From assembly GCA_052327205.1 (NCBI GenBank), contig CM126208.1:71362001-71426000 (forward strand): 64,000 bases of DNA, in the 5' to 3' direction. Under the pieces are notes generated by a model. The model had not been told where the DNA came from. It saw only the letters and a program-made list of their open reading frames with translations, and ran no database searches. Shown piece after piece: positions 20,565-58,953 of the stretch (its first letter is position 1; the number at the start of each line of letters is the position of its first letter). Source of the stretch: Somniosus microcephalus. Its lineage: Eukaryota. The translations under genes and the position numbers were made by a program.

Positions 20565-20670
20565 AGGGGTTCTGATGAAAGGTCATCGACCTGAAACGTT
20601 AACTCTGTTTCTCTCTCCACAGATGCTGCCTGACCTGCAGAGTATTTCCAGCATTTCCTCTTTTTATTAT
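20565..20670 (+). mobile_element. Penelope-like terminus with intact minimal hammerhead motif and 14-bp TSD
   Basis: GGGGTT-CTGATGA-A-AGGTC ATC GACCT-GAAACGTT-AACTCT; TTAATGATTAGGGG (20556-20569) versus TTAATGATGAGGGG (20670-20683). Confidence 0.82.
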
Positions 20671-22726: not shown

Positions 22727-22862
22727 AAAAGCAAAAACTGCGGATGCTGGAAATCTGAAATAAAAACAGAAAATGCTGGAAATACTCAGCAGGTCAGGCA
22801 GCAGCTGTGGAGAGAGATGCTATCTGGCCTAAGTGTTTCCAGCATTTTCTGTTTTTATTTAT
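22727..22862. mobile_element. Fold-back (inverted) copy of the Penelope-like terminus lacking the hammerhead
   Basis: AATAAAAACAGAAAATGCTGGAAA ... TTTCCAGCATTTTCTGTTTTTATT inverted arms. Confidence 0.75.
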
Positions 22863-27419: not shown

Positions 27420-27620
27420 GTTGATTAGGTTGGTTAGGTTGATTGGCTATGATAAATTGACCCTTAGTGTTAGGGGGATTAGACACGTGGGGTTACAAGG
27501 ATAGGGTGGGATATGTGTTGGTGTAGGGGTTACGGGGATCGGGTGGAATATGTGTCGGTGCAGGCTCGATGGGCCGAAATGGCCTCTATCTGCACTGTGG
27601 GGTTTCTGTGATTTCTGTGA
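27420..27620 (+). mobile_element. HE1-like elasmobranch SINE, 3' half
   Basis: GTTAGGTTGATTGGCTATGATAAATTG...GGCTCGATGGGCCGAAATGGCCT...GCACTGTGGGGTTTCTGTGA; the tail resembles the CR1 tails in this window. Confidence 0.7.
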
Positions 27621-27754: not shown

Positions 27755-28300
27755 TACGGTAGCAGAATGGTTAAGTTACTGGACTTATAATCCAGAGAAG
27801 GTGAATCCAAATCCCACCATGGTTTGAGAATTTGAATTCAGTTTAAAATAAAAAGCTGGTATCAGTAATCCTGACCATGCAGCTGTCAAATTGTCGTAAA
27901 ACCCAACCATTTCACTGAAACAAAAGTAAAATATTGCGGATGCTGAAAATCTTTAATAAAAGCAGAAAATGCTGAAAATACTCCCAAGAGTTAACCTGAA
28001 ACGTTAACTTGGTTTCTCTCTCCACAGATGCTGCCTGACCTGAGTATTCACAGAATTTTTTTTAAAATTCCAACTCTTTCAATAATGTACTTTAGTGCCA
28101 TCCTTATCCGGTCTGGCCTATTTGTGACTCAAGTCCCACAACAACATGGTTGACTCTTAACTGCTCTGTGTAGTACCCTAGCAAGCCACTCAGTTGTATC
28201 AAATCGCTACAATACAGTGATTCAAGGTGACCCACTAGAAATGGACAATAAATGCCAACTTCTCCACTGAAGTCCTCTCCCAAGAATGAATTTAATAAAA
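27755..28300 (+). mobile_element. tRNA-head SINE sharing its tail with the second LINE family, interrupted by a Penelope-like piece (related copies near 6380-7100, 25130-25360, 51930-52205)
   Basis: Head GCAGAATGGTTAAGTTACTGGACT...CAAATCCCACCATGG; tail ATGGACAATAAATGCC similar to 12590-12630. Confidence 0.55.
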
Positions 28301-30751: not shown

Positions 30752-30906
30752 CAAAAGCAGAATACTGCAAGTGCTGGAAACCTGAAATAAAAACAGAAAA
30801 TGCTGGAAATACTCAGGTCAGGCAGCATCTGTGGAGAGAAACAGATCGATCGCTCCACAGATGCTGCCTGACCTGCTGAGTATTTCCAGCATTTTCTGTT
30901 TTTAAT
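30752..30906. mobile_element. Fold-back Penelope-like terminus with flanking direct repeat
   Basis: Arms AAAAACAGAAAATGCTGGAAATACTCAG..GTCAGGCAGCATCTGTGGAG / CTCCACAGATGCTGCCTGAC..CTGAGTATTTCCAGCATTTTCTGTTTTT; TTTAAAAAGTACAAAAGC at 30741 and TTTAAAAGTACAAAGC at 30906. Confidence 0.8.
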
Positions 30907-31679
30907 TTAAAAGTACAAAGCTCCAAAATCCAATTCCAAAGTGCTGTAACTCCTGGTTTGGGTTTTCTGCCTAGGTGACATCAGGACAAATGAGACCAGC
31001 AGAAAGTGTTGGCCTTTTTTTGGGTCTGAATTCGGTCCCCATTTCTTTGGCTCATGCTGGGGTACAGTTCTATAGCAGTCAGTTACTCCTCGCTACCTAC
31101 AGTAAGTGACCGTTCTTCACACGCAACCCTAAACAGCAAGTGTTGGAAGATTATTCAGCTGTAGGATGCATGACATCCAAGCCTAATTGTGGCCTTATCA
31201 CACATCTAGCACAAAACAGTGTACAGAAGAAATGCGTATCAAAGTAACAGAGTATGTTATAGTACAGTGCACTTCTTCACTGCTGCAGTCACTTGATGCC
31301 ATATCCTTTGGGTACTGGCATCACCACTTCTATTATCTTTTCAAATCAAGTCAGTGCCAGTATCACACAATTATGCAACACAAAAAATATTTTTAAAAAC
31401 ATCAGTAATCCAGCAACAAGTCCTTTCAGCAGCTTCAGCAGAGAGAGTTGGAAGATGAAACATTTCCCTACAAGGAGTCATTGCAGCAGAACCCATTGTG
31501 GATAAAAATTTGAAGCAAAGGAATATAGAAGACTACAGGGAGATAGAGCAGTGGAATGAGTTTGCAATTGCTCTAGCAGTGGTACAGATGTGATGGATTG
31601 AATGTCTTTCTAGTGTGCTGTAAACCTCTCTAGTTCTGTTATTGTCCATGAAGGAATACATCCTGGTTTATTACTGAAT

Positions 31680-41627: not shown

Positions 41628-44600
41628 CACGAACTAACACATGCATAACACTCATTTGGGCAGGCGAAGTAGCACACCCCGCATCTCGTGGAACCATACA
41701 TGATCTGCAGGCGTTACCCTCAGAAAAGGAACAGACATTGAGGGGGAAAAATACTTAATTAACATTTACACACAGCACCAACCTCACAAAGTCAATGAAA
41801 AAACCCTCACTCAACATTTTCAATTTCATTACTGGTTCAGAAAAATCACCAGAGGGCTCAATTTGCCCACCAGCTCTGTTGTGTCTCTGCCTAAAAATTC
41901 TCAGTTAGTTCCCACCGATTCCTGGACTCCAAGCAACCCATGATCCTACATGTATGGGGCTTTGTGCCAGCATTTTTACAATAAACACTGGCTCCTAATA
42001 CATCTGTTGCAGAAAGGTTTCGAGGCAAAATACCAACTTGGTGTAGACATATTAGGAATAAAGACGCCACTTAATAAGGAGCCTCCAACAATATTCAGTG
42101 GGGCGATGGAAATACATTATACAATATAGAAATACATTGTTACAACAGAGAAACAGGCCATATGCCCAAATTATCCATGTTTGTTTTTGTTAGGTGTCAG
42201 CGATAGGGAGCAACAGTGGGAAAATGCAGTTGAGGTGCAGATCATCCATGATCTAATTGACTAGCAGAGCAGGCACGAGGGACCAAATGGCCCACTCTTG
42301 TTCCTTATGTTACTATATCATTCACCCTCCACACAAAGCAACAGTTCAAATTACAGTTACCAACCGTGAGCCCAATTCCCTTCATCCCCTTTTCCCTCAT
42401 CCACCTAACCAATCGAAACTTGAATGTGACATCATTTCGGCCTCAACCATTAACCCTTGGAGTGAATTTCGCAGCCTCGCAACTCTGCATGAAGAAATTT
42501 CTCCTTCCCCCTGTTCTAAATAACTTACATTTAACCTCTTATCTGCAGCCCTTCAACAAGAAACAGTCCGCCTCAATCTAAGCCGTCCCAATCTTCCAGA
42601 ATTTTAAACACCATCATATTCCCCCAATCGGTGTAGCTCTGACAAAAATGACAATTTTTCACAAAGACACGCATATAGTTGAGGGTGAAAAGACCTGGGA
42701 CACGATCACAAACAAAAGGCTAGAAATTGAAGAAATTAGTTCAAGAGGATAGAACCCTGCAAATGTACTGAAAACAGAAAATGCAAGTATAACACAGTGG
42801 GTCCACCAGTCCCATAGAGATAACGGATGAACACGATGAGTTCTAACTTAGGGTATAGAAACATAGAAGATAGGAGCAGGAGTATGCCATTCGGCCCTTC
42901 GAGCCTGCTCCGCCATTCAATGAGATCATGGCTGATCATCCAAATTCAGTACCCTGTCCCTGCCTTCTCCCCATATCGCTTGATCCCTTTAGCCTTAAGA
43001 AATATATCCAACTCTTTCTTGAATATATTTAATGAACTGGCCTCCAACGCCCTCTGTGGCAGTGAACTCCACAGGTTCACCACTCTCTGGGTGAAGAAAT
43101 TCCTCCTCATTTCAGTCCTAAATGGCTTACCCCTTATCCTTAGACTATGACCCCTGGTTCTGGACTCCCCAGCCATCAGAAACATCCTTCCTGCATCTAG
43201 TCTGTCCAGGCCTGACAGAATTTTATAGGTTTCGATGAGATCCCCTCTCAATCTTCTAAACTCCAGTGAGTATAAGCCCAATCGACACAATCTCTCCTCA
43301 TACGTCATTCCTGCCATCCCAGGTATCAGCCTGGTGAATCTTCGCTGCACTCCTTCCATGGCAAGAACGTCCTTCCTCAGGTAAGGCGACCAAAACTGCA
43401 CACAATACTCAAGGTGCTGTCTCACCAAGGCCCTGTACAACTGTAGTAAGACATCCTCGTTCCTGTACTCGAACCCTCTTGCTACGAAGGCCAACATACC
43501 ATTTGCCTTCTTAACCGCCTGCTGCACCTGCATGCTTACCTTCAGCGACTGGTGCACAAGAACACCCAGGTCTCTTTGCACTTCCCCTTCTCCCAATCTA
43601 TTGCCATTCAAATAATAATCTGCTTTCCTGTTTTTGCCACCAAAGTGGATAACCTCACATTTATCCACATTATAGTGCATTTGCCATGTTTCTGCCCAAT
43701 CACCCAACCTGTCCAAATCGTACTGGAGTTTCACGACATCCTCCCCACAGCATACCCTCCCACCCAGCTTTGTGTCGTCTGCAAATTTGGAGATATTACA
43801 TCCAATTCCCTCGTCCAGATCATTAATATATATTGTGAACAGCTGGGGTCCTAGGACCGATCCTTGCGGTACCCCACTAGTCACTGCCTACCACTCGGAA
43901 AACGACCCGTTTATTCCAACTCTTTGCTTTCTGTCCGCCAACCAGTTCTCTATCCAAGTCAATACCTTGCCCCCAATCCCATGTGCCTTAATTTTGCACG
44001 CTAATCTCTTGTGGGACCTTATCAAAAGCCTTCTGAAAGTCCAAATACACCACATCCACTGGTTCTCCCTTATCTATTTTACCAGTTACATCCTCAAAAT
44101 TCCAGTAGATTAGTCAAGCATGATTTACCTTTTGTAAATCCATGTTGACTTTGTCCGATCCTGTCACTGCTTTCCAAGTGCTCTGCTGTTACATATTTTA
44201 TAATGGACTCTAGCATTTTCCCCACTACCGATGTCAGGCTTACCGGTCTATAATTCCCCGCTTTTTCTCTACCACCTTTTTTGAATATTGGGGTAACATT
44301 AGCTACCCTCCAATCCATGGGTACTGTTCCAGAGTCTATCGGGTTCTGGAAGATGACCAGCAATGCATCTACTATTTCTAGGGCCACTTCCTTAAGTACC
44401 CTGGGATGTAGATTATCAGGCTCTGGGGATTTATCAGCCTTCAGTCCCATCAATTTTCCTCACACCATTTCCCTACAAATACTGATTTCTTGCAGTTCCA
44501 CCCTTTCATCAGACCCTATGTTCCCCGACATCTCTGGGAGGTTATTTGTGTCCTCCTTTGTGAAGACAGAACCAAAATATGTATTTAGTTGGTCTGCCAT

Positions 44601-45944
44601 TTCTTTGTTCCCCATTATAAATTCCCCTGATTCTGACTGCAAGGGACCTACGCTTGACACCACCAATTTTTTTCTCTTCACATATCTATAAAAGCTTTTA
44701 CAGTCAGTTTTTATGTTCCGTGCAAGCTTACTCTCATATTCTATTTTCCCTTTCTTTATTAATCCCTTTGTCCTCCTTTGTTGAATCCTAAACTGCTCCC
44801 AATCCTCAGGATTATTGCTTTTTCTGGCCAATTTATATGTCCGCTCCTTGGATCTTATGCTATCCCTAATTTCCCTCGTTAGCCACGGTTGAGTCACCTA
44901 TTTTGTTTTATTTTTATGCCAAACTGGGATGAACAAATTCTGTAGCTCATCCATTCGGTCTTTGAATGTTTGCCATTGCCTATCCACCGTCAACCCTTTG
45001 AGTGACATTCCCCAATCAATCCTACCCAACTCGCTCCTCAGATCATCGTAGTTTCCTTTATTTAAATTGAGGACCCTAGTCTCCGAGTCAACTACTTCAT
45101 TCTCCGTCTTAATGAAGAATTCGATCATATTATGATCGCTCCGACCCAAGGGGCCTCGTACAATAAGACTGCTAATTAATCCTTTCTCGTTACATAATAC
45201 CCAGTCTAAGATGGCCTGATCTCTGGTTGGTTCCTCGACATATTGGTCCAGGAAACCATCCCGTAAACACTCCAGGAATTCCTCCTCCACAGTATTGTTA
45301 CTAATTTGGTTGGCCCAATCTATATGAAGGTTAAAGTCACCCATGATGACTGCTGTGCCCTTATTGCACGCTTCTTTAATTTCCCTTTTAATGCCATCCC
45401 CAACCTCCGCCTTACTGTTTGGAGGTCTATATACCACTCCCACTAACGTTTTTTTCCCTTTAGTATTTCTCAATTCGACCCATACAGATTCCACATCATC
45501 AGAGCTAATATCCTTCATTACAATTGCATTAATCCCTTCTTTAACCAGTAATGCTACCCCACCTCCCTTTCCTTTTTGCCTATCTTTCCTGAATATCGAA
45601 TACCCCTGGATGTTGAGTTCCCAGTCTTGACCATCCTTGAGCCACATTTCCGTAATCCCAACCAAATCTTATTGGTTTACTTCTATTTGCGCAGCCAATT
45701 CATCCACCTTATTACAAATGCTCCTTGCATTAAGACACAAAGCCTTCAGGCTTGTTTTTTTTAATGCTCTTAGACCTATTAGAATTATTATTTACTGTGG
45801 CCACGTTTGATTTAAACCGTTGATTTCTCAGACTGCCACTTTTGTTTTTCTCCTTCCTATCTTTTGCTTTTATCCTCGTTTCCCTTTCCTCTGTCTCCCT
45901 GCTCAGGTTCCCAACCCCCTGCCATCTGACATGATTCTCTGACT

Positions 45945-46013
45945 ATTAGCACTGTTGCCTCACAGCGCCAGGGACCTCTATCTGCACTGTGGGGTTTCTG
46001 TGATTCTGTGATA
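45945..46013 (+). mobile_element. Internally deleted HE1-like SINE (head joined to tail) nested in the CR1
   Basis: TTAGCACTGTTGCCTCACAGCGCCAGGGACC followed directly by TCTATCTGCACTGTGGGGTTTCTGTGA, identical to the tail at about 27585-27611. Confidence 0.65.
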
Positions 46014-46029
46014 TAAGCTGTGTCTTTAT

Positions 46030-46165
46030 GCATTTCTCCACTTCACCTGAAGAAGGAGCAGCGCTCCGAAAGCTTGTGATTTCAAATAAAGCTGTTGGAC
46101 TATAACCTGGTGTTGTGTGACTTCTTACATTTGTCCACCCCAGTCCAACTCCGGCATCTCCACAC
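46030..46165 (+). mobile_element. Penelope-like terminus, second family, nested in the CR1
   Basis: CACCTGAAGAAGGAGCAGCGCTCCGAAAGCTTGTGATTTCAAATAAAGCTGTTGGACTATAACCTGG...; hammerhead motif followed by AATAAA. Confidence 0.75.
46042..46079 (+). ncRNA. Minimal type-I hammerhead ribozyme motif
   Basis: Stem I TCAC/GTGA, core CTGAAGA (46047-46053), stem II GGAGC-AGC-GCTCC, GAAA (46068-46071), palindromic AGCT instead of stem III, predicted cleavage after CUU (46075). Confidence 0.7.
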
Positions 46166-49100
46166 CATTTTAGTTTAAACCCTCCCTCCCCCACAGCACT
46201 AGCAAACACTCCCCCGAGGACATCGGTTCCAGCCCTGCCCAGGTGCAAACTGTCCGGTTTGAACTGGTCCCACCGCCCCCAGAACCGGTTCCAATGTCCC
46301 AGGAACTTGAATCCCTCCCCCTGGCACCATTCCTCTAGCCACGTATTCATCTGAAGTATCCTTCTATTTCTGCTCTGACTAGCACATGGCACTGGTAGCA
46401 ATCCTGAGATTACGACCTTTGAGGTCCTGTTTTTTAATTTATCTCCTAACTCCCTATATTCCGCTTTTAGGACCTCATCCCGCTTTTTACCTATATCGTT
46501 GGTGCCTATATGCACCATGACAACTGGCTGTTCACCCTCCCCTTCCAAGATGTTCTGCAGCCGCTCGGAGACATCCTTGACCCTGGCACCAGGGAGGCAA
46601 CACACCATCCTGGAGTCTCGTTTGCGGCCACAGAAACGCCTATCTATTCCCCTTACAATAGAATCCCCTATTACTATAGCTCTGCCCCAAGCCAATGCTA
46701 CATGCAAGGAACCCTTTGTCAGCACGGAATTCTGATGAATGGTCTAGATCAGAAATGTCAGCCTCCCTCCCCTTCCAATATTACCAGACCCAATCCACAT
46801 CACTAACATGCTATACCACAACGAAAATGAAGTGGAGAATTCGATCTTGCCCAGGGAGCATGGTAATAAGGGGAGAAAGGGATGGAAAAAAAGTGACAAA
46901 ATTATTTTTTTGGTCTAGCGTTGATTTGATAACTGTCCTGTAAAATTACATGTGGAGATTAGCAGCCAGCTAAAGCCAATGTTGTACTGGGCCTGTCCTG
47001 ATACTGTTTGAAGTTTCATCAGTTACAAGCCTGAGAGGCAGAGAGATCATTACACTTATTGCTGTGCGATTGAGTCAGTTTGCAGTTAACTGACATTTCC
47101 TTTTAGAATTTCAGAGGTCAGATATTTAAATTTGGGTGACTCCCTATAACTCTTTTCCATGATAAGGATGCAGCTTGAAATCTCAGAGGCCAGTCAGTTG
47201 CAGTCCATTTTCCTTCACCAAAAACACTGCACCTCTTCTAAAGTCATTTACACCAGATTAGCTCAGCTCTTAGAATTGTGATCTTTTTATAATTTTGTCC
47301 ATGACTGTAATATATAATTACACAATATTTATGACCGTTTGAGCTTGTTCAGCTTTTGTAAAATAAATATGCTGCATATTTTAAACTTGAAATAAGAACT
47401 GATGGGATATTCTATCGTCTTCGAAGATGTGAGTGAGATCTCACGAAGGCACAAGATAAATCGAGTAGCTAAAATTGAGCAGCTAAACTCGAGCAACTAA
47501 AAACAATTAGCAGACAAGGTTTGCTGTTCCTTTCCTGTGTGCATTTTTAAAAACATATACATTAGTAGAATGAAGGAGACAATCAGTTTCACTGTGTTGG
47601 TCCATATTATCGCAAAAAAATTGATCAGGCATAACTGAGCATTGACACAGAGCCAGGTCACATGAGGCATGCTAAGATTTTTGGTGACTCACTTTTTTTG
47701 GGCTGCTGTTTTTACAATCTCTCAAAGTCTCAAGTCTCAGAGCTTTTTAAAAAAAATGCTGAACAATTCATTATTCTCTGCTTGAATGTGCAGCCTCGAG
47801 TAATCAGGAGCAAGAAATTCAGCAAGTCAACATACAAGTCATCCGGCAAAGCACAGAAATCGCCGAGTGGCAGGGTGATTCTGTGGGGTGAGACTGAAAG
47901 CAGAGTTTTGGAGCTCTTTGTTCAACAGCATCAACAAACTTTCCTTGTGGAACTGCACAACTCGAGTTGTTTTGAGCCTGATGGTGCCTAAACTGATCGA
48001 CTTTCATTTATGAAGGTTTCAGCCCATTCTCAAGGACAATATGGGCATCTCCACCACAGCTATTCATTAAAAATCCCACCACTTTAATTGTACTTCCTGT
48101 CACTTGATCATAAAACATTATACTCGTGGAGAACTCTGAAGTCTAGTCTCTCCAGGCCAGGAAGTGGAACACAGATAGCATTGCACATTAACGTCAATAC
48201 ACTATGGAGATTTGTAAGTCACTTTAATACGATCTTGTACAACACTCTTAATTCTCAAATTGTTGCCACTACCAGTACTTCACCCCAACCATGGACAGCT
48301 GTTCCAAACAACCAAACATTGGAAGGACAAGAACTACAACTGCGCTGTTGGGTGTTTTCCCACATTTTTGGATTTGAGAATTTCAAACATCCACCTTGGT
48401 ACTTTATTGAAATCCTGCTGGGGGAAAAATTGTGCCTGGAGTACAACTCCATGGGAATTTCACATCTGCCATTAGGCTATACTGAAGCCCAAGCGATAGA
48501 ACTGAAGTATATATGGCAAAGAAAAGGTTTGCTGCTACAATTTTTAGCTGGAAAATTATCAGAAAGGAGCGGTTTAATCCTGAGCAAAGCTGGTAGAAAA
48601 GTCTCGTCATCACTGATCCATAACCAACTACAGGTACTGCCATAACAAACAACTCCACGCTACAAAGGGGAGATTTTACACACCACACACAAAATCAATT
48701 GTATGTTCCCCGTGCAAGAATTTCTTCCCATAAGTTCCTCTAAAACTTCTTTCCTTTATACCCTGATTTTGTTAGCTTTCCTTTACTCCTCTCCTAAACA
48801 CATGCAAATGCTTTGTCCAAGTAGCTAGTGATGAAATGTGACTCCAGGCAGTGAATACCATAGGCTAACCAATCATGGAGGTCCAGCACATCGGAGCCTG
48901 ATCCTGCACACATACAAACAGGGGTGCACTTTACAGCAAGTGTCACGGACAAACAGCAGCAGGAAGCTGGAGTCATTTTTCATACTCAGGGCACTGAGCC
49001 CAACTCCTGCACCTGCTGCCATCAGCAAATTTGGCACACACGAAAGACTGAACCCGGACCCTCCTGGTCTGTATGAGTTAACACAAGGTGGTGCCTTCAT

Positions 49101-57697: not shown

Positions 57698-58339
57698 CTG
57701 CAGGGGAGAAAATTAGGCAAAGGAGGGATTTGTAAAAATGAAAAATGATTTCACACGGTCCACCCATCAGAGATAGAGGGTGACGCCTCTTCCTTCCTTC
57801 CCCCCGTTTAGGGGACCTCAGCTATTAAATCACAACCAGAATGGTCTCCTAGCTCAAAATCTCCAGTCTCCTGGTTCAGAATCCACATGTAGATTTAATC
57901 AGTTCACTGAATGCCACCAAGGTCTGAAATATCATGAACTGATGGTAAATGCAAGGTAACAGTGCCGCAAAAGGCCAATCTATATTATGGGTTGTGTGGA
58001 CACCAGAATCAACAGATCAGCCTGATCACAGAACTGTCAAATCAAAGAACATTGGCAAATGTAAATCGGAGCATGAGGAAATAATTTAATAATTCAATTA
58101 TCTGCTGCAGAAAATAAAAATTACTGTTTTTCAAAAAAAATCTCTTCCTCCTGTCCACATGGTACATGTCATTCTTTGGCTCGTGGAGACTTGCTGCTCC
58201 ACACAGCACATGCTGATGCCCTTTTTCCCGCTCAGCTGGGGATCAGAAAGTTGTCACGTTGACTGACTGCAAGACTAAGTAGACAACTCAGTGGTACGAA
58301 ACACAGGCACACCAATAGGGTTTAATTAGATTTAATGGG

Positions 58340-58890
58340 TACCAGCAGGGGAGCCCGGCGTTGCCAGGGCAATTTTGGGCCGCGCGGTCTCCGTGCCCGT
58401 GTCCCCCCCCCTCTCTGTCCCTCTCTGTCCCTCTCCCCCTCTCCCTGCCTCCCTCCCCCCTCCCCTCCCCTCCGCCCCCCACCCTTCTGATAGCGGCCGG
58501 GCTGTCGGGCAGAGACGGACCCGAGCTGAGCTCTCTCGCGGATCGCGCGGCCGCTACCGCTCCCCCGACCGCTGTGTGTGTCGGGCTGAGCGGTTGCGAG
58601 GCACGGCCCGAGTGAGCCCAACTTACCTGCCGGTGTGGCGGGGCAGGAGCGGGATCGGGAGCCGCAATGTGAGGGTTGCTGTGGGGATGGAGCTCCCCCG
58701 CAGGTGGCGCGGTTGACGGTCGGCCGCTGCCGGTGACCCACCCGCTGCGTGGAAACTCACCTGCCGCTGCTGGAGTTGGAATGTGGGGGTTTGTTTGGCT
58801 GGTGGTGTCACTGTGGGGATTGAAAAAAATGGCGGCGAAGTTTAGGGAGACTGGAGCATTAGGTCCCGCCTGGTCAACCATCAGGTGAGT
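58340..58890. promoter_or_regulatory. CpG island at the 5' end of gene B, with RFX X-box GTTGCCAGGGCAAT (58360-58373) and YY1 motif AAAATGGCGGC (58826-58836)
   Basis: High GC and CpG density relative to flanks; motifs read directly. Confidence 0.85.
58627..58850 (-). other. Non-coding first exon(s) of gene B with alternative donors at 58761 (CAG|GTGAGT) and 58627 (CAG|GTAAGT)
   Basis: Two perfect consensus 5' splice sites in the CpG island, downstream of GCCGCCATTTT and of two CCAAT boxes. TSS is inferred. Confidence 0.7.
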
Positions 58891-58895
58891 GAACT

Positions 58896-58953
58896 GTAGG
58901 ATTGGTCAAGCAGCACATCACTCAACACTAATGAGAGGTAGGATTGGTCAAGC
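58896..58953 (-). promoter_or_regulatory. Two NF-Y CCAAT boxes within a duplicated 16-mer (GTAGGATTGGTCAAGC), 42 bp apart
   Basis: ATTGG at 58901-58905 and 58943-58947; minus strand reads GACCAATCC. Confidence 0.7.

What the first reader, a model, noticed from the sequence alone, without database searches (positions are those of the whole stretch)
46042..46090. Second, sequence-distinct hammerhead family with the same minimal fold
Seen: stems differ completely from family 1 (stem I TCAC/GTGA, stem II GGAGC/GCTCC, palindrome AAGCTT versus AACGTT), yet the core, the extra A after CUGANGA, the 3-nt loop II and the missing stem III are the same; AATAAA follows about 10 nt after the predicted cut. 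This natural covariation between two families supports a real RNA structure. Inference: different palindromes would restrict dimerisation to like partners.
Basis: partly seen in the sequence, partly recalled or inferred. Interest (0 to 1): 0.7.

Follow-up and report, generated by a model that had tools for sequence, protein, structure and literature searches.

The report
Minimal hammerhead in Penelope-type retroelement stub
This 37-base motif matches the minimal self-cutting RNA (hammerhead ribozyme) fold already described for Penelope-like jumping genes of animals and lies here in a lone 177-base stub of a high-copy repeat, likely the end of such an element, so it is an ordinary member of a known class whose cutting, predicted to need a second identical copy, is untested.

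Summary
The motif lies in a 243-base insertion inside a CR1-type LINE; 66 bases of that are a nested SINE piece. The remaining 177 bases belong to a high-copy dispersed repeat, most likely the 5'-truncated end (pseudo-LTR) of a Penelope-like element (PLE); I could not link it to a protein-coding parent. The fold, the extra base after CUGANGA, the missing helix III, dimer action and several families with different palindromes in one genome were all published in 2014 (PMC4209133); a turtle motif there has the same AAGCUU and a downstream AAUAAA. Like-with-like pairing follows from base pairing but needs no special selection. Only one family-2 copy is in the window, so this copy is probably inert; RNA reads show no pile-up at the cut. 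One small extra: with the SINE piece set aside, the stub reads TATA box, initiator 30 bases on, ribozyme, AATAAA, an LTR-like layout I did not find in print.

The parts
45926..46168 (+). Whole insertion, 243 bases (junction may slide 4 bases to 45922-46164; CCAT stands on both sides, once in the empty site)
   Evidence: Joint 45921>46165 in 908 and 1120 RNA reads and 7 and 8 DNA contigs; junction print
45926..45944 (+). 5' part of the repeat stub, upstream of the nested SINE piece; 5' junction shares CCAT with the repeat's own upstream sequence (microhomology, inferred)
   Evidence: Loose ends before 46011 in 31 and 44 DNA contigs, agreement 0.82-0.83; joint 45944>46011
45945..46010 (+). Nested 66-base piece of a SINE-like repeat: head part 45946-76 joined to tail part 45975-46010 with 8-base tandem end
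   Evidence: Joint 45944>46011 in 47 and 71 RNA reads, 5 and 9 DNA contigs; loose ends at 45946, 45975, 45976; tail also at 27583-27620; period-8 repeat. SINE label is recalled
46011..46017 (+). TATA-box-like word, complete (TATATAAG, first T at 45944) in copies that lack the SINE piece; split in this copy
   Evidence: promoter activity untested
46038..46044 (+). Initiator-like word (YYANWYY), A at 46040, 30 bases after the TATA start when the SINE piece is set aside; predicted start of transcription
   Evidence: 2 of 37 TATAWAWR words in the window have such an initiator, 0 of 37 also AATAAA
46043..46079 (+). Minimal type-I hammerhead motif: stem I, core CUGAAGA, extra A, 5-pair stem II with 3-base loop, GAAA, no helix III (AGCU self-complementary), H17 = U, predicted cut after 46075
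   Evidence: published consensus
46085..46090 (+). AATAAA, poly(A)-signal-like
   Evidence: use untested
46108..46119 (+). GT-rich stretch at the distance of a downstream polyadenylation element (inferred)
46120..46168 (+). 3' end of the stub; other copies run on past 46168, the majority letters beginning with G (which would complete an ATG), then diverge
   Evidence: 86 contigs with loose ends behind 46168, median 255 bases, agreement only 0.37 (run X2)
42946..46743 (-). Host of the insertion: decayed CR1-type LINE, esterase-type ORF1 (46166-46743) and endonuclease/reverse-transcriptase ORF2 (45668 downward); the stub sits at the ORF1 end, on the opposite strand
   Evidence: ORFs; Pfam Lipase_GDSL_2 2.5e-13, Exo_endo_phos 4.8e-11, RVT_1 2.2e-9. 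The name CR1 rests on recalled domain order

Best explanation
The motif matches the minimal type-I hammerhead consensus of animal Penelope-like elements and lies in a lone 177-base stub of a high-copy dispersed repeat, likely the 5'-truncated terminal repeat (pseudo-LTR) of such an element, where two identical copies on one tandem transcript would pair and cut each other, probably with help from the element's protein. Shown: the motif, the insertion limits, the nested SINE piece, the high copy number, the free N7. Inferred: in the parent, transcription starts near 46040 (TATA -30, initiator), so a repeat-ORF-repeat transcript carries one motif just after the cap and one just before AATAAA; copy 1 supplies core and stem II, copy 2 the U-H cut site and 3' stem I strand (AGCU pairs with AGCU as helix III), and both ends are cut after the base equivalent to 46075. 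Reverse transcription that began near the ORF start and stopped early left this stub in a LINE; a SINE piece later split its TATA box. This copy has no like partner in the 64 kb and is probably inert.
For: Descriptor 2 hits in window vs 1 of 1000 shuffles. All features equal the published consensus CUGANGAH, G10.1-C11.1, palindromic 15.2-16.2; turtle row has the same AAGCUU and AAUAAA after the cut, lamprey Poseidon row the same UCAC/GUGA stem I (compared by eye). Insertion of 243 bases with an empty site in other LINE copies; about 19,300 contigs per DNA run lie on the 501-base stretch, with summed depth over the stub like that of the LINE flanks; shared 3' end with unlike flanks. N7 reads C 51%, T 28%, A 21% of depth in run X1, and all A>C, A>T, C>A, C>G, G>C and G>T places of that run are visible, none in the motif except N7. 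Solo, 5'-truncated, many-family stubs are the published norm; TATA plus initiator 20 bases on and the first ORF codons are described for rotifer pLTRs; tails end at reverse-transcription starts inside the ORF, and the anole ribozyme cuts only with the protein.
Against: No RT or GIY-YIG parent was linked (all blank; no genome held), and the turtle row, the nearest published look-alike, is itself not marked as PLE-associated. No tandem pair seen. Nearest-neighbour energies do not favour the active dimer (-19.1 kcal/mol) over two monomers (about -22.5) or an inactive duplex through stem II (-28.9). No begin/end pile-up or dip at 46075/6 in 2 RNA runs. 50 of 90 variant rows were hidden, among them 15 DNA changes of 5% or more (10 of them C>T or G>A) that could fall in the motif; variable sites outside the motif (6 shown in about 120 bases) are not clearly denser than inside (1 in 37). 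Published in-vitro rates are low and 8 of 9 frog dimers did not cut. Rfam has no match.
Confidence: 0.85

Rival explanations
1. The stub is a monomer of a non-autonomous, non-coding hammerhead repeat (animal retrozyme or SINE-like derivative of a PLE terminus) that spreads by borrowed PLE proteins and occurs elsewhere as short tandem units.
For: Very high copy number with no ORF linked; vertebrate retrozymes derive from pLTRs, occur as dispersed monomers and were found in the one cartilaginous fish sampled.
Against: No go-back joint among the 15 best-supported joints (44 hidden) and flanks after 46168 are unlike one another; described animal retrozymes mostly carry canonical type-I motifs with a short helix III (passages); no tandem of the unit near the site.
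Confidence: 0.1
2. The fold is kept by selection but not for dimer self-cleavage: it acts as a monomeric protein-assisted ribozyme or only as a binding or processing signal next to the promoter and poly(A) signal. This can hold together with PLE membership.
For: The anole PLE ribozyme cut only when protein was added, and core mutants did not change insertion in vitro; no RNA-seq ends at the cut. Active dimer is not the favoured fold here; no pile-up.
Against: Palindromic 15.2-16.2 is kept in 40 of the 41 published rows without a longer helix III (counted by eye) and in both families here, which a monomer would not need; dimers and trimers cut while a monomer did not.
Confidence: 0.25
3. Chance match to a short motif.
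For: Folding z-score -0.95; no Rfam hit; one copy in the window.
Against: 1 of 1000 shuffles gives any descriptor hit; the motif lies in a high-copy repeat whose main variable motif site is N7.
Confidence: 0.01

Closest known systems
Minimal hammerheads (min-HHR) in the pseudo-LTRs of metazoan Penelope-like elements (Cervera and de la Pena 2014, PMC4209133; Lunse, Weinberg and Breaker 2017, seen only as a citation in PMC6765202)
   Same: Type-I topology, core CUGANGA plus one extra base, G10.1-C11.1, short stem I, no helix III, palindromic A-N-N-U, AU-rich 3' flank, mostly solo copies, several families per genome. AGCU is 5 of 56 published rows, ACGU 29 of 56; AAUAAA is visible after the cut in about 9 of 56 (by eye).
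   Different: This exact sequence family was not found in the paper's alignment or in a full-text search; no shark is named in the 2014 text. The TATA-initiator-ribozyme-AATAAA spacing is not discussed in the texts I searched.
Painted-turtle min-HHR row of Fig. S3 (PMC4209133 supplement)
   Same: CUGAAGAA core, 5-pair stem II, AAGCUU, 4-pair stem I, AAUAAA 7 bases after the cut (here 9), pyrimidine-rich upstream flank.
   Different: Stem sequences and loop II length (7 against 3). That turtle-type termini belong to the Neptune clade is my recollection, not a result; clade was not tested.
Anole Poseidon element PAc (Frangieh et al. 2024, PMC11167929)
   Same: Hammerhead in the pLTR; inserts end in a tail taken from the ORF start; no RNA-seq ends at the cut site.
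   Different: In PAc the ORF starts at stem II; here the only candidate ATG lies about 90 bases after the cut and is weakly supported.
Animal non-LTR retrozymes (PMC7229834; bioRxiv 10.64898/2026.07.22.740005)
   Same: Type-I hammerhead in a short non-coding repeat related to pLTRs; monomers are dispersed.
   Different: Defined by tandem units with a hammerhead in each; no tandem seen here.

Membership tests
Minimal type-I hammerhead (min-HHR) | Core CUGANGA and GAAA with U16.1-H17 | tested here: met
   46047-53, 46068-71, T46074-T46075
Minimal type-I hammerhead (min-HHR) | Extra base between A9 and 10.1, and G10.1-C11.1 pair | tested here: met
   A46054; G46055-C46067
Minimal type-I hammerhead (min-HHR) | Helices I and II present, helix III reduced to a self-complementary A-N-N-U | tested here: met
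   4 and 5 pairs; AGCU
Minimal type-I hammerhead (min-HHR) | Self-cleavage as a dimer | not testable with these tools
   Needs the bench; RNA reads show no pile-up at the cut, a weak negative
Rfam hammerhead families (RF00163 and kin; names recalled) | Gathering score | tested here: not met
   0 matches in the window at gathering score; none to a hammerhead family up to E 10 in 45900-46200; expected for a motif without helix III (inference)
Penelope-like element (EN+) | ORF with telomerase-like RT and GIY-YIG nuclease next to the terminus | tested here: inconclusive
   None in this stub; 0 GIY-YIG-type or PLE-specific motif hits recognised among 337 window frames of 60+ residues (regex only); parent searches blank; no assembly held
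Penelope-like element (EN+) | Partial-tandem arrangement giving two pLTRs | not testable with these tools
   One copy in 64 kb; no assembly
Penelope-like element (EN+) | Dispersed, 5'-truncated copies with hammerhead near a shared 3' end or tail | tested here: met
   Empty-site joint, high copy number, upstream family sequence cut off at 45926, unlike flanks behind 46168
Neptune clade | Cys-rich linker between RT and nuclease; RT phylogeny | not testable with these tools
   No protein in hand; only the look-alike turtle row and recollection
Non-LTR retrozyme | Two or more tandem units each with a hammerhead | tested here: not met
   At this locus a single unit; elsewhere no go-back joint among 15 shown of 59, so other loci remain open

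The most novel reading that the evidence does not exclude
This PLE family has an LTR-like terminus in which the ribozyme fills the R region: transcription starts 3 bases before stem I and the poly(A) signal lies 10 bases after the cut. Pairing of the 5' and 3' copies would strip cap and poly(A) tail in one step and join like ends only, giving a unit-length or circular template from which internally primed reverse transcription yields the repeat-plus-tail stubs; palindrome and stem I would act as a family-specific end-joining code among co-resident families.
Probability: 0.15. Interest if true: 0.55.

Novelty: new member of a known kind. Interest (0 to 1): 0.15.

Why it matters
As it stands, little: it adds one more sequence family to a class described in 2014 with thousands of copies per genome. 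The role of PLE hammerheads in vivo is still open, and two co-resident families with incompatible helix III and stem I, one of them with a clean promoter-ribozyme-poly(A) layout, would be a convenient pair for testing whether the ribozyme pairs transcript ends and competes with polyadenylation.

Tried and rejected
Rfam at gathering score over the window and by E-value over 45900-46200: no hammerhead match. No whole genome is held. Exact-pattern scans for the motif and for the downstream block: 0 in viral contigs, 0 in metagenome contigs; genome contigs (prokaryotes) not scanned. Attempts to reach the parent ORF through peptides read across the stub: sense frame leading to the candidate ATG and antisense frame, all blank; weak evidence, since eukaryotic repeats are poorly held. 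Regex look for PLE protein motifs in 337 frames of the window: only LINE-type hits. No RNA holder was listed by the run search; two raw RNA runs with the same species label as the best DNA holder were laid instead. Strand of expression could not be fixed: the two libraries show opposite mate bias on the LINE and SINE parts. The rise in DNA depth at 46038 could suggest copies starting at the initiator, but a like ramp occurs at the LINE junction, so I treat it as an edge effect. Lunse et al. 2017 is not held; it may already cover palindrome classes or mixed dimers. Literature search for heterodimer exclusion gave nothing relevant among 15 listed of 36. Searches for the motif letters in full texts (2 unrelated primer hits) and in the Craig 2021 supplement (0). 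The supplements of the 2026 bioRxiv preprint (closed) may list cartilaginous-fish families that include this one. Earlier findings by place, sequence and one word set: none.

Full report
Observation. By hammerhead numbering the cut falls after U17 = 46075, and AATAAA follows at 46085-90. The loose pattern CTGANGA..GAAA is only twice as common as chance (15 against 7.0) and the fold is not unusually stable (z -0.95), but a full minimal-hammerhead descriptor hits 2 sites in the window (20572 and 46047) while 1 of 1000 shuffles has any. Rfam has no match. The window holds one copy of this family and about a dozen pieces of family 1.

Covariation. In an alignment of this copy with 4 family-1 copies, 8 of 11 pairs change on both sides (0 of 500 shuffles; slid controls 0-1). 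The caveats: most double changes rest on the one family-2 row, and the structure was read from these sequences. Stem I differs at all 4 pairs, stem II keeps 2 of 5 pairs of the family-1 majority, so 'differ completely' is a little strong. AATAAA is not shared: 0 of 4 family-1 copies have it after the cut.

Anatomy of the site. No genome is held, so I laid two raw RNA runs and two contig sets on 45800-46300 (4 of the 24 runs listed). The strongest joint skips 243 bases (45921>46165; 908 and 1120 reads, 7 and 8 contigs): other copies of the surrounding repeat lack the insertion, and CCAT stands once in the empty site and on both sides here. The surrounding repeat is a decayed LINE on the minus strand with an esterase-type ORF1 and an endonuclease/RT ORF2, a CR1-type order (recalled). 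A second joint (45944>46011; 47 and 71 reads, 5 and 9 contigs) shows that 66 bases are a later, nested piece of a SINE-like repeat, itself missing its middle. What remains is a 177-base stub. It belongs to a high-copy family: depth over it is of the order of the LINE flanks, more than 100 contigs differ at a single site, the family continues upstream of 45926 (sharing CCAT with the target, a microhomology junction by inference), and 86 contigs of one run leave the stretch behind 46168 into unlike flanks (agreement 0.37). The repeats look like those of a cartilaginous fish; that is recollection, not a result.

Variation among copies. Within the motif the main DNA variant is N7 (46051): C 51%, T 28%, A 21% of depth in run X1. 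N7 is the free position of the hammerhead core. The table hid 50 of 90 rows; from the per-kind counts, 15 DNA changes of 5% or more are hidden in X1 (5 C>T, 5 G>A, 3 T>C, 1 T>A, 1 A>G), so CpG decay in the motif cannot be excluded, but all other transversion places are visible and none lies in the motif except N7. Variable sites outside the motif (6 shown in about 120 bases) are not clearly denser, so this is modest support. RNA reads cross the predicted cut without a dip and no begin or end pile-up is listed there; most such reads will come from lone passenger copies, and the anole study found the same blank.

What is in print. Cervera and de la Pena 2014 (PMC4209133; I read parts 1-2 of 4 of the text, and parts 1-2 of 3 of the supplement) defined this motif: no helix III, a base between positions 9 and 10.1, G10.1-C11.1, palindromic 15.2-16.2, several consensus families per genome, mostly single copies from truncated PLEs, low cleavage as dimer or trimer and none as monomer. 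Of 56 aligned rows I count by eye 29 ACGU, 5 AGCU, 5 AUAU, 1 AAUU, 1 non-palindromic and 15 with a longer helix III; Schistosoma carries both AGCU and ACGU families. The turtle row has AAGCUU and AAUAAA 7 bases after the cut (it is not marked as PLE-linked); the lamprey Poseidon row has the same UCAC/GUGA stem I; AAUAAA shows after the cut in about 9 of 56 rows, though the text never mentions it. A review repeats the dimer model and cites Lunse et al. (PMC6765202, passages; the paper itself is not held). Frangieh et al. 2024 (PMC11167929, parts 1-2 of 4) showed internal priming that makes the tail, protein-assisted cleavage, and no need of cleavage for insertion in vitro. A 2026 preprint (parts 1 and 3 of 5 and passages) ties vertebrate retrozymes to pLTRs; 1 of 9 frog dimers cut. 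Passages only: PMC8557442, PMC3846280 (TATA plus initiator and first ORF codons in rotifer pLTRs), PMC2377424 (transcript starts in the upstream pLTR), PMC7229834, PMC6515669 (nothing of use).

How it likely works. In a tandem parent, two identical termini lie on one RNA. AGCU pairs with AGCU to make helix III, stem I strands swap, and two active sites form. Like pairs make 4 of 4 helix-III and 3 of 3 stem-I pairs; mixed family-1/family-2 pairs make 2 of 4 and 0-1 of 3. Nearest-neighbour energies put the active dimer (-19.1 kcal/mol) below neither two monomers (about -22.5) nor an inactive duplex through the near-palindromic stem II (-28.9); this model ignores core contacts but fits the low rates and protein help reported. 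The copy in the window has no like partner within the 64 kb and a split TATA box, so it is probably inert.

One extra. With the SINE piece set aside the stub reads: TATA word, initiator-like A exactly 30 bases on (46040), ribozyme from +4 to +40, AATAAA at +46, GT-rich stretch at +69, end near +125 where other copies may read ATG. In the window 2 of 37 TATA words have an initiator at that distance and none also has AATAAA; the test is after the fact. This is an LTR-like U3-R-U5 layout with the ribozyme filling R. If used, the dimer would remove cap and poly(A) tail together. I found no text that states this, but Lunse et al. and repeat databases were out of reach.

Limits. No parent ORF was found, so PLE membership rests on the motif and on insertion anatomy, and the Neptune label on recollection. 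Verdict: real, a new sequence family at most, of a class known since 2014; interest 0.15.

Noticed in passing
window 4765, 20572, 21003(-), 23911 and other family-1 pieces: After the predicted cut family 1 has no AATAAA but a pyrimidine run ending in CAG followed by ATG (clearest at 20572), and a second pyrimidine run ending in CAG about 45 bases on: 3' splice-site-like words, in line with introns in PLE termini.
   Followed up: no
window 22740-22860, 27936-28059, 30772-30907: Family-1 stubs stand as adjacent inverted pairs, as described for PLE inverted termini.
   Followed up: no
window 46086: An A>G change that breaks AATAAA is in 113 of 489 and 17 of 166 RNA reads of one mate orientation, 2 of 364 and 0 of 359 of the other, and 0.13% of DNA contig depth: one expressed locus, editing, or enrichment of read-through copies with a dead signal.
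   Followed up: no
window 46042, 46043, 46048: T>C changes in 20-30% of one mate orientation in one RNA run only, including core U4; likely one highly expressed mutant copy or editing on the opposite strand.
   Followed up: no
window 46055-46067: Stem II with its AGC loop can pair between two copies over 12 base pairs; this inactive duplex is the lowest-energy dimer.
   Followed up: partly
window 45945-46010: The nested SINE-like piece joins a head part directly to a tail part across a short CC overlap; the tail recurs at 27583-27620.
   Followed up: partly
window 58288-58905: GC-rich stretch with purine-rich repeats, possibly a host promoter or CpG island.
   Followed up: no
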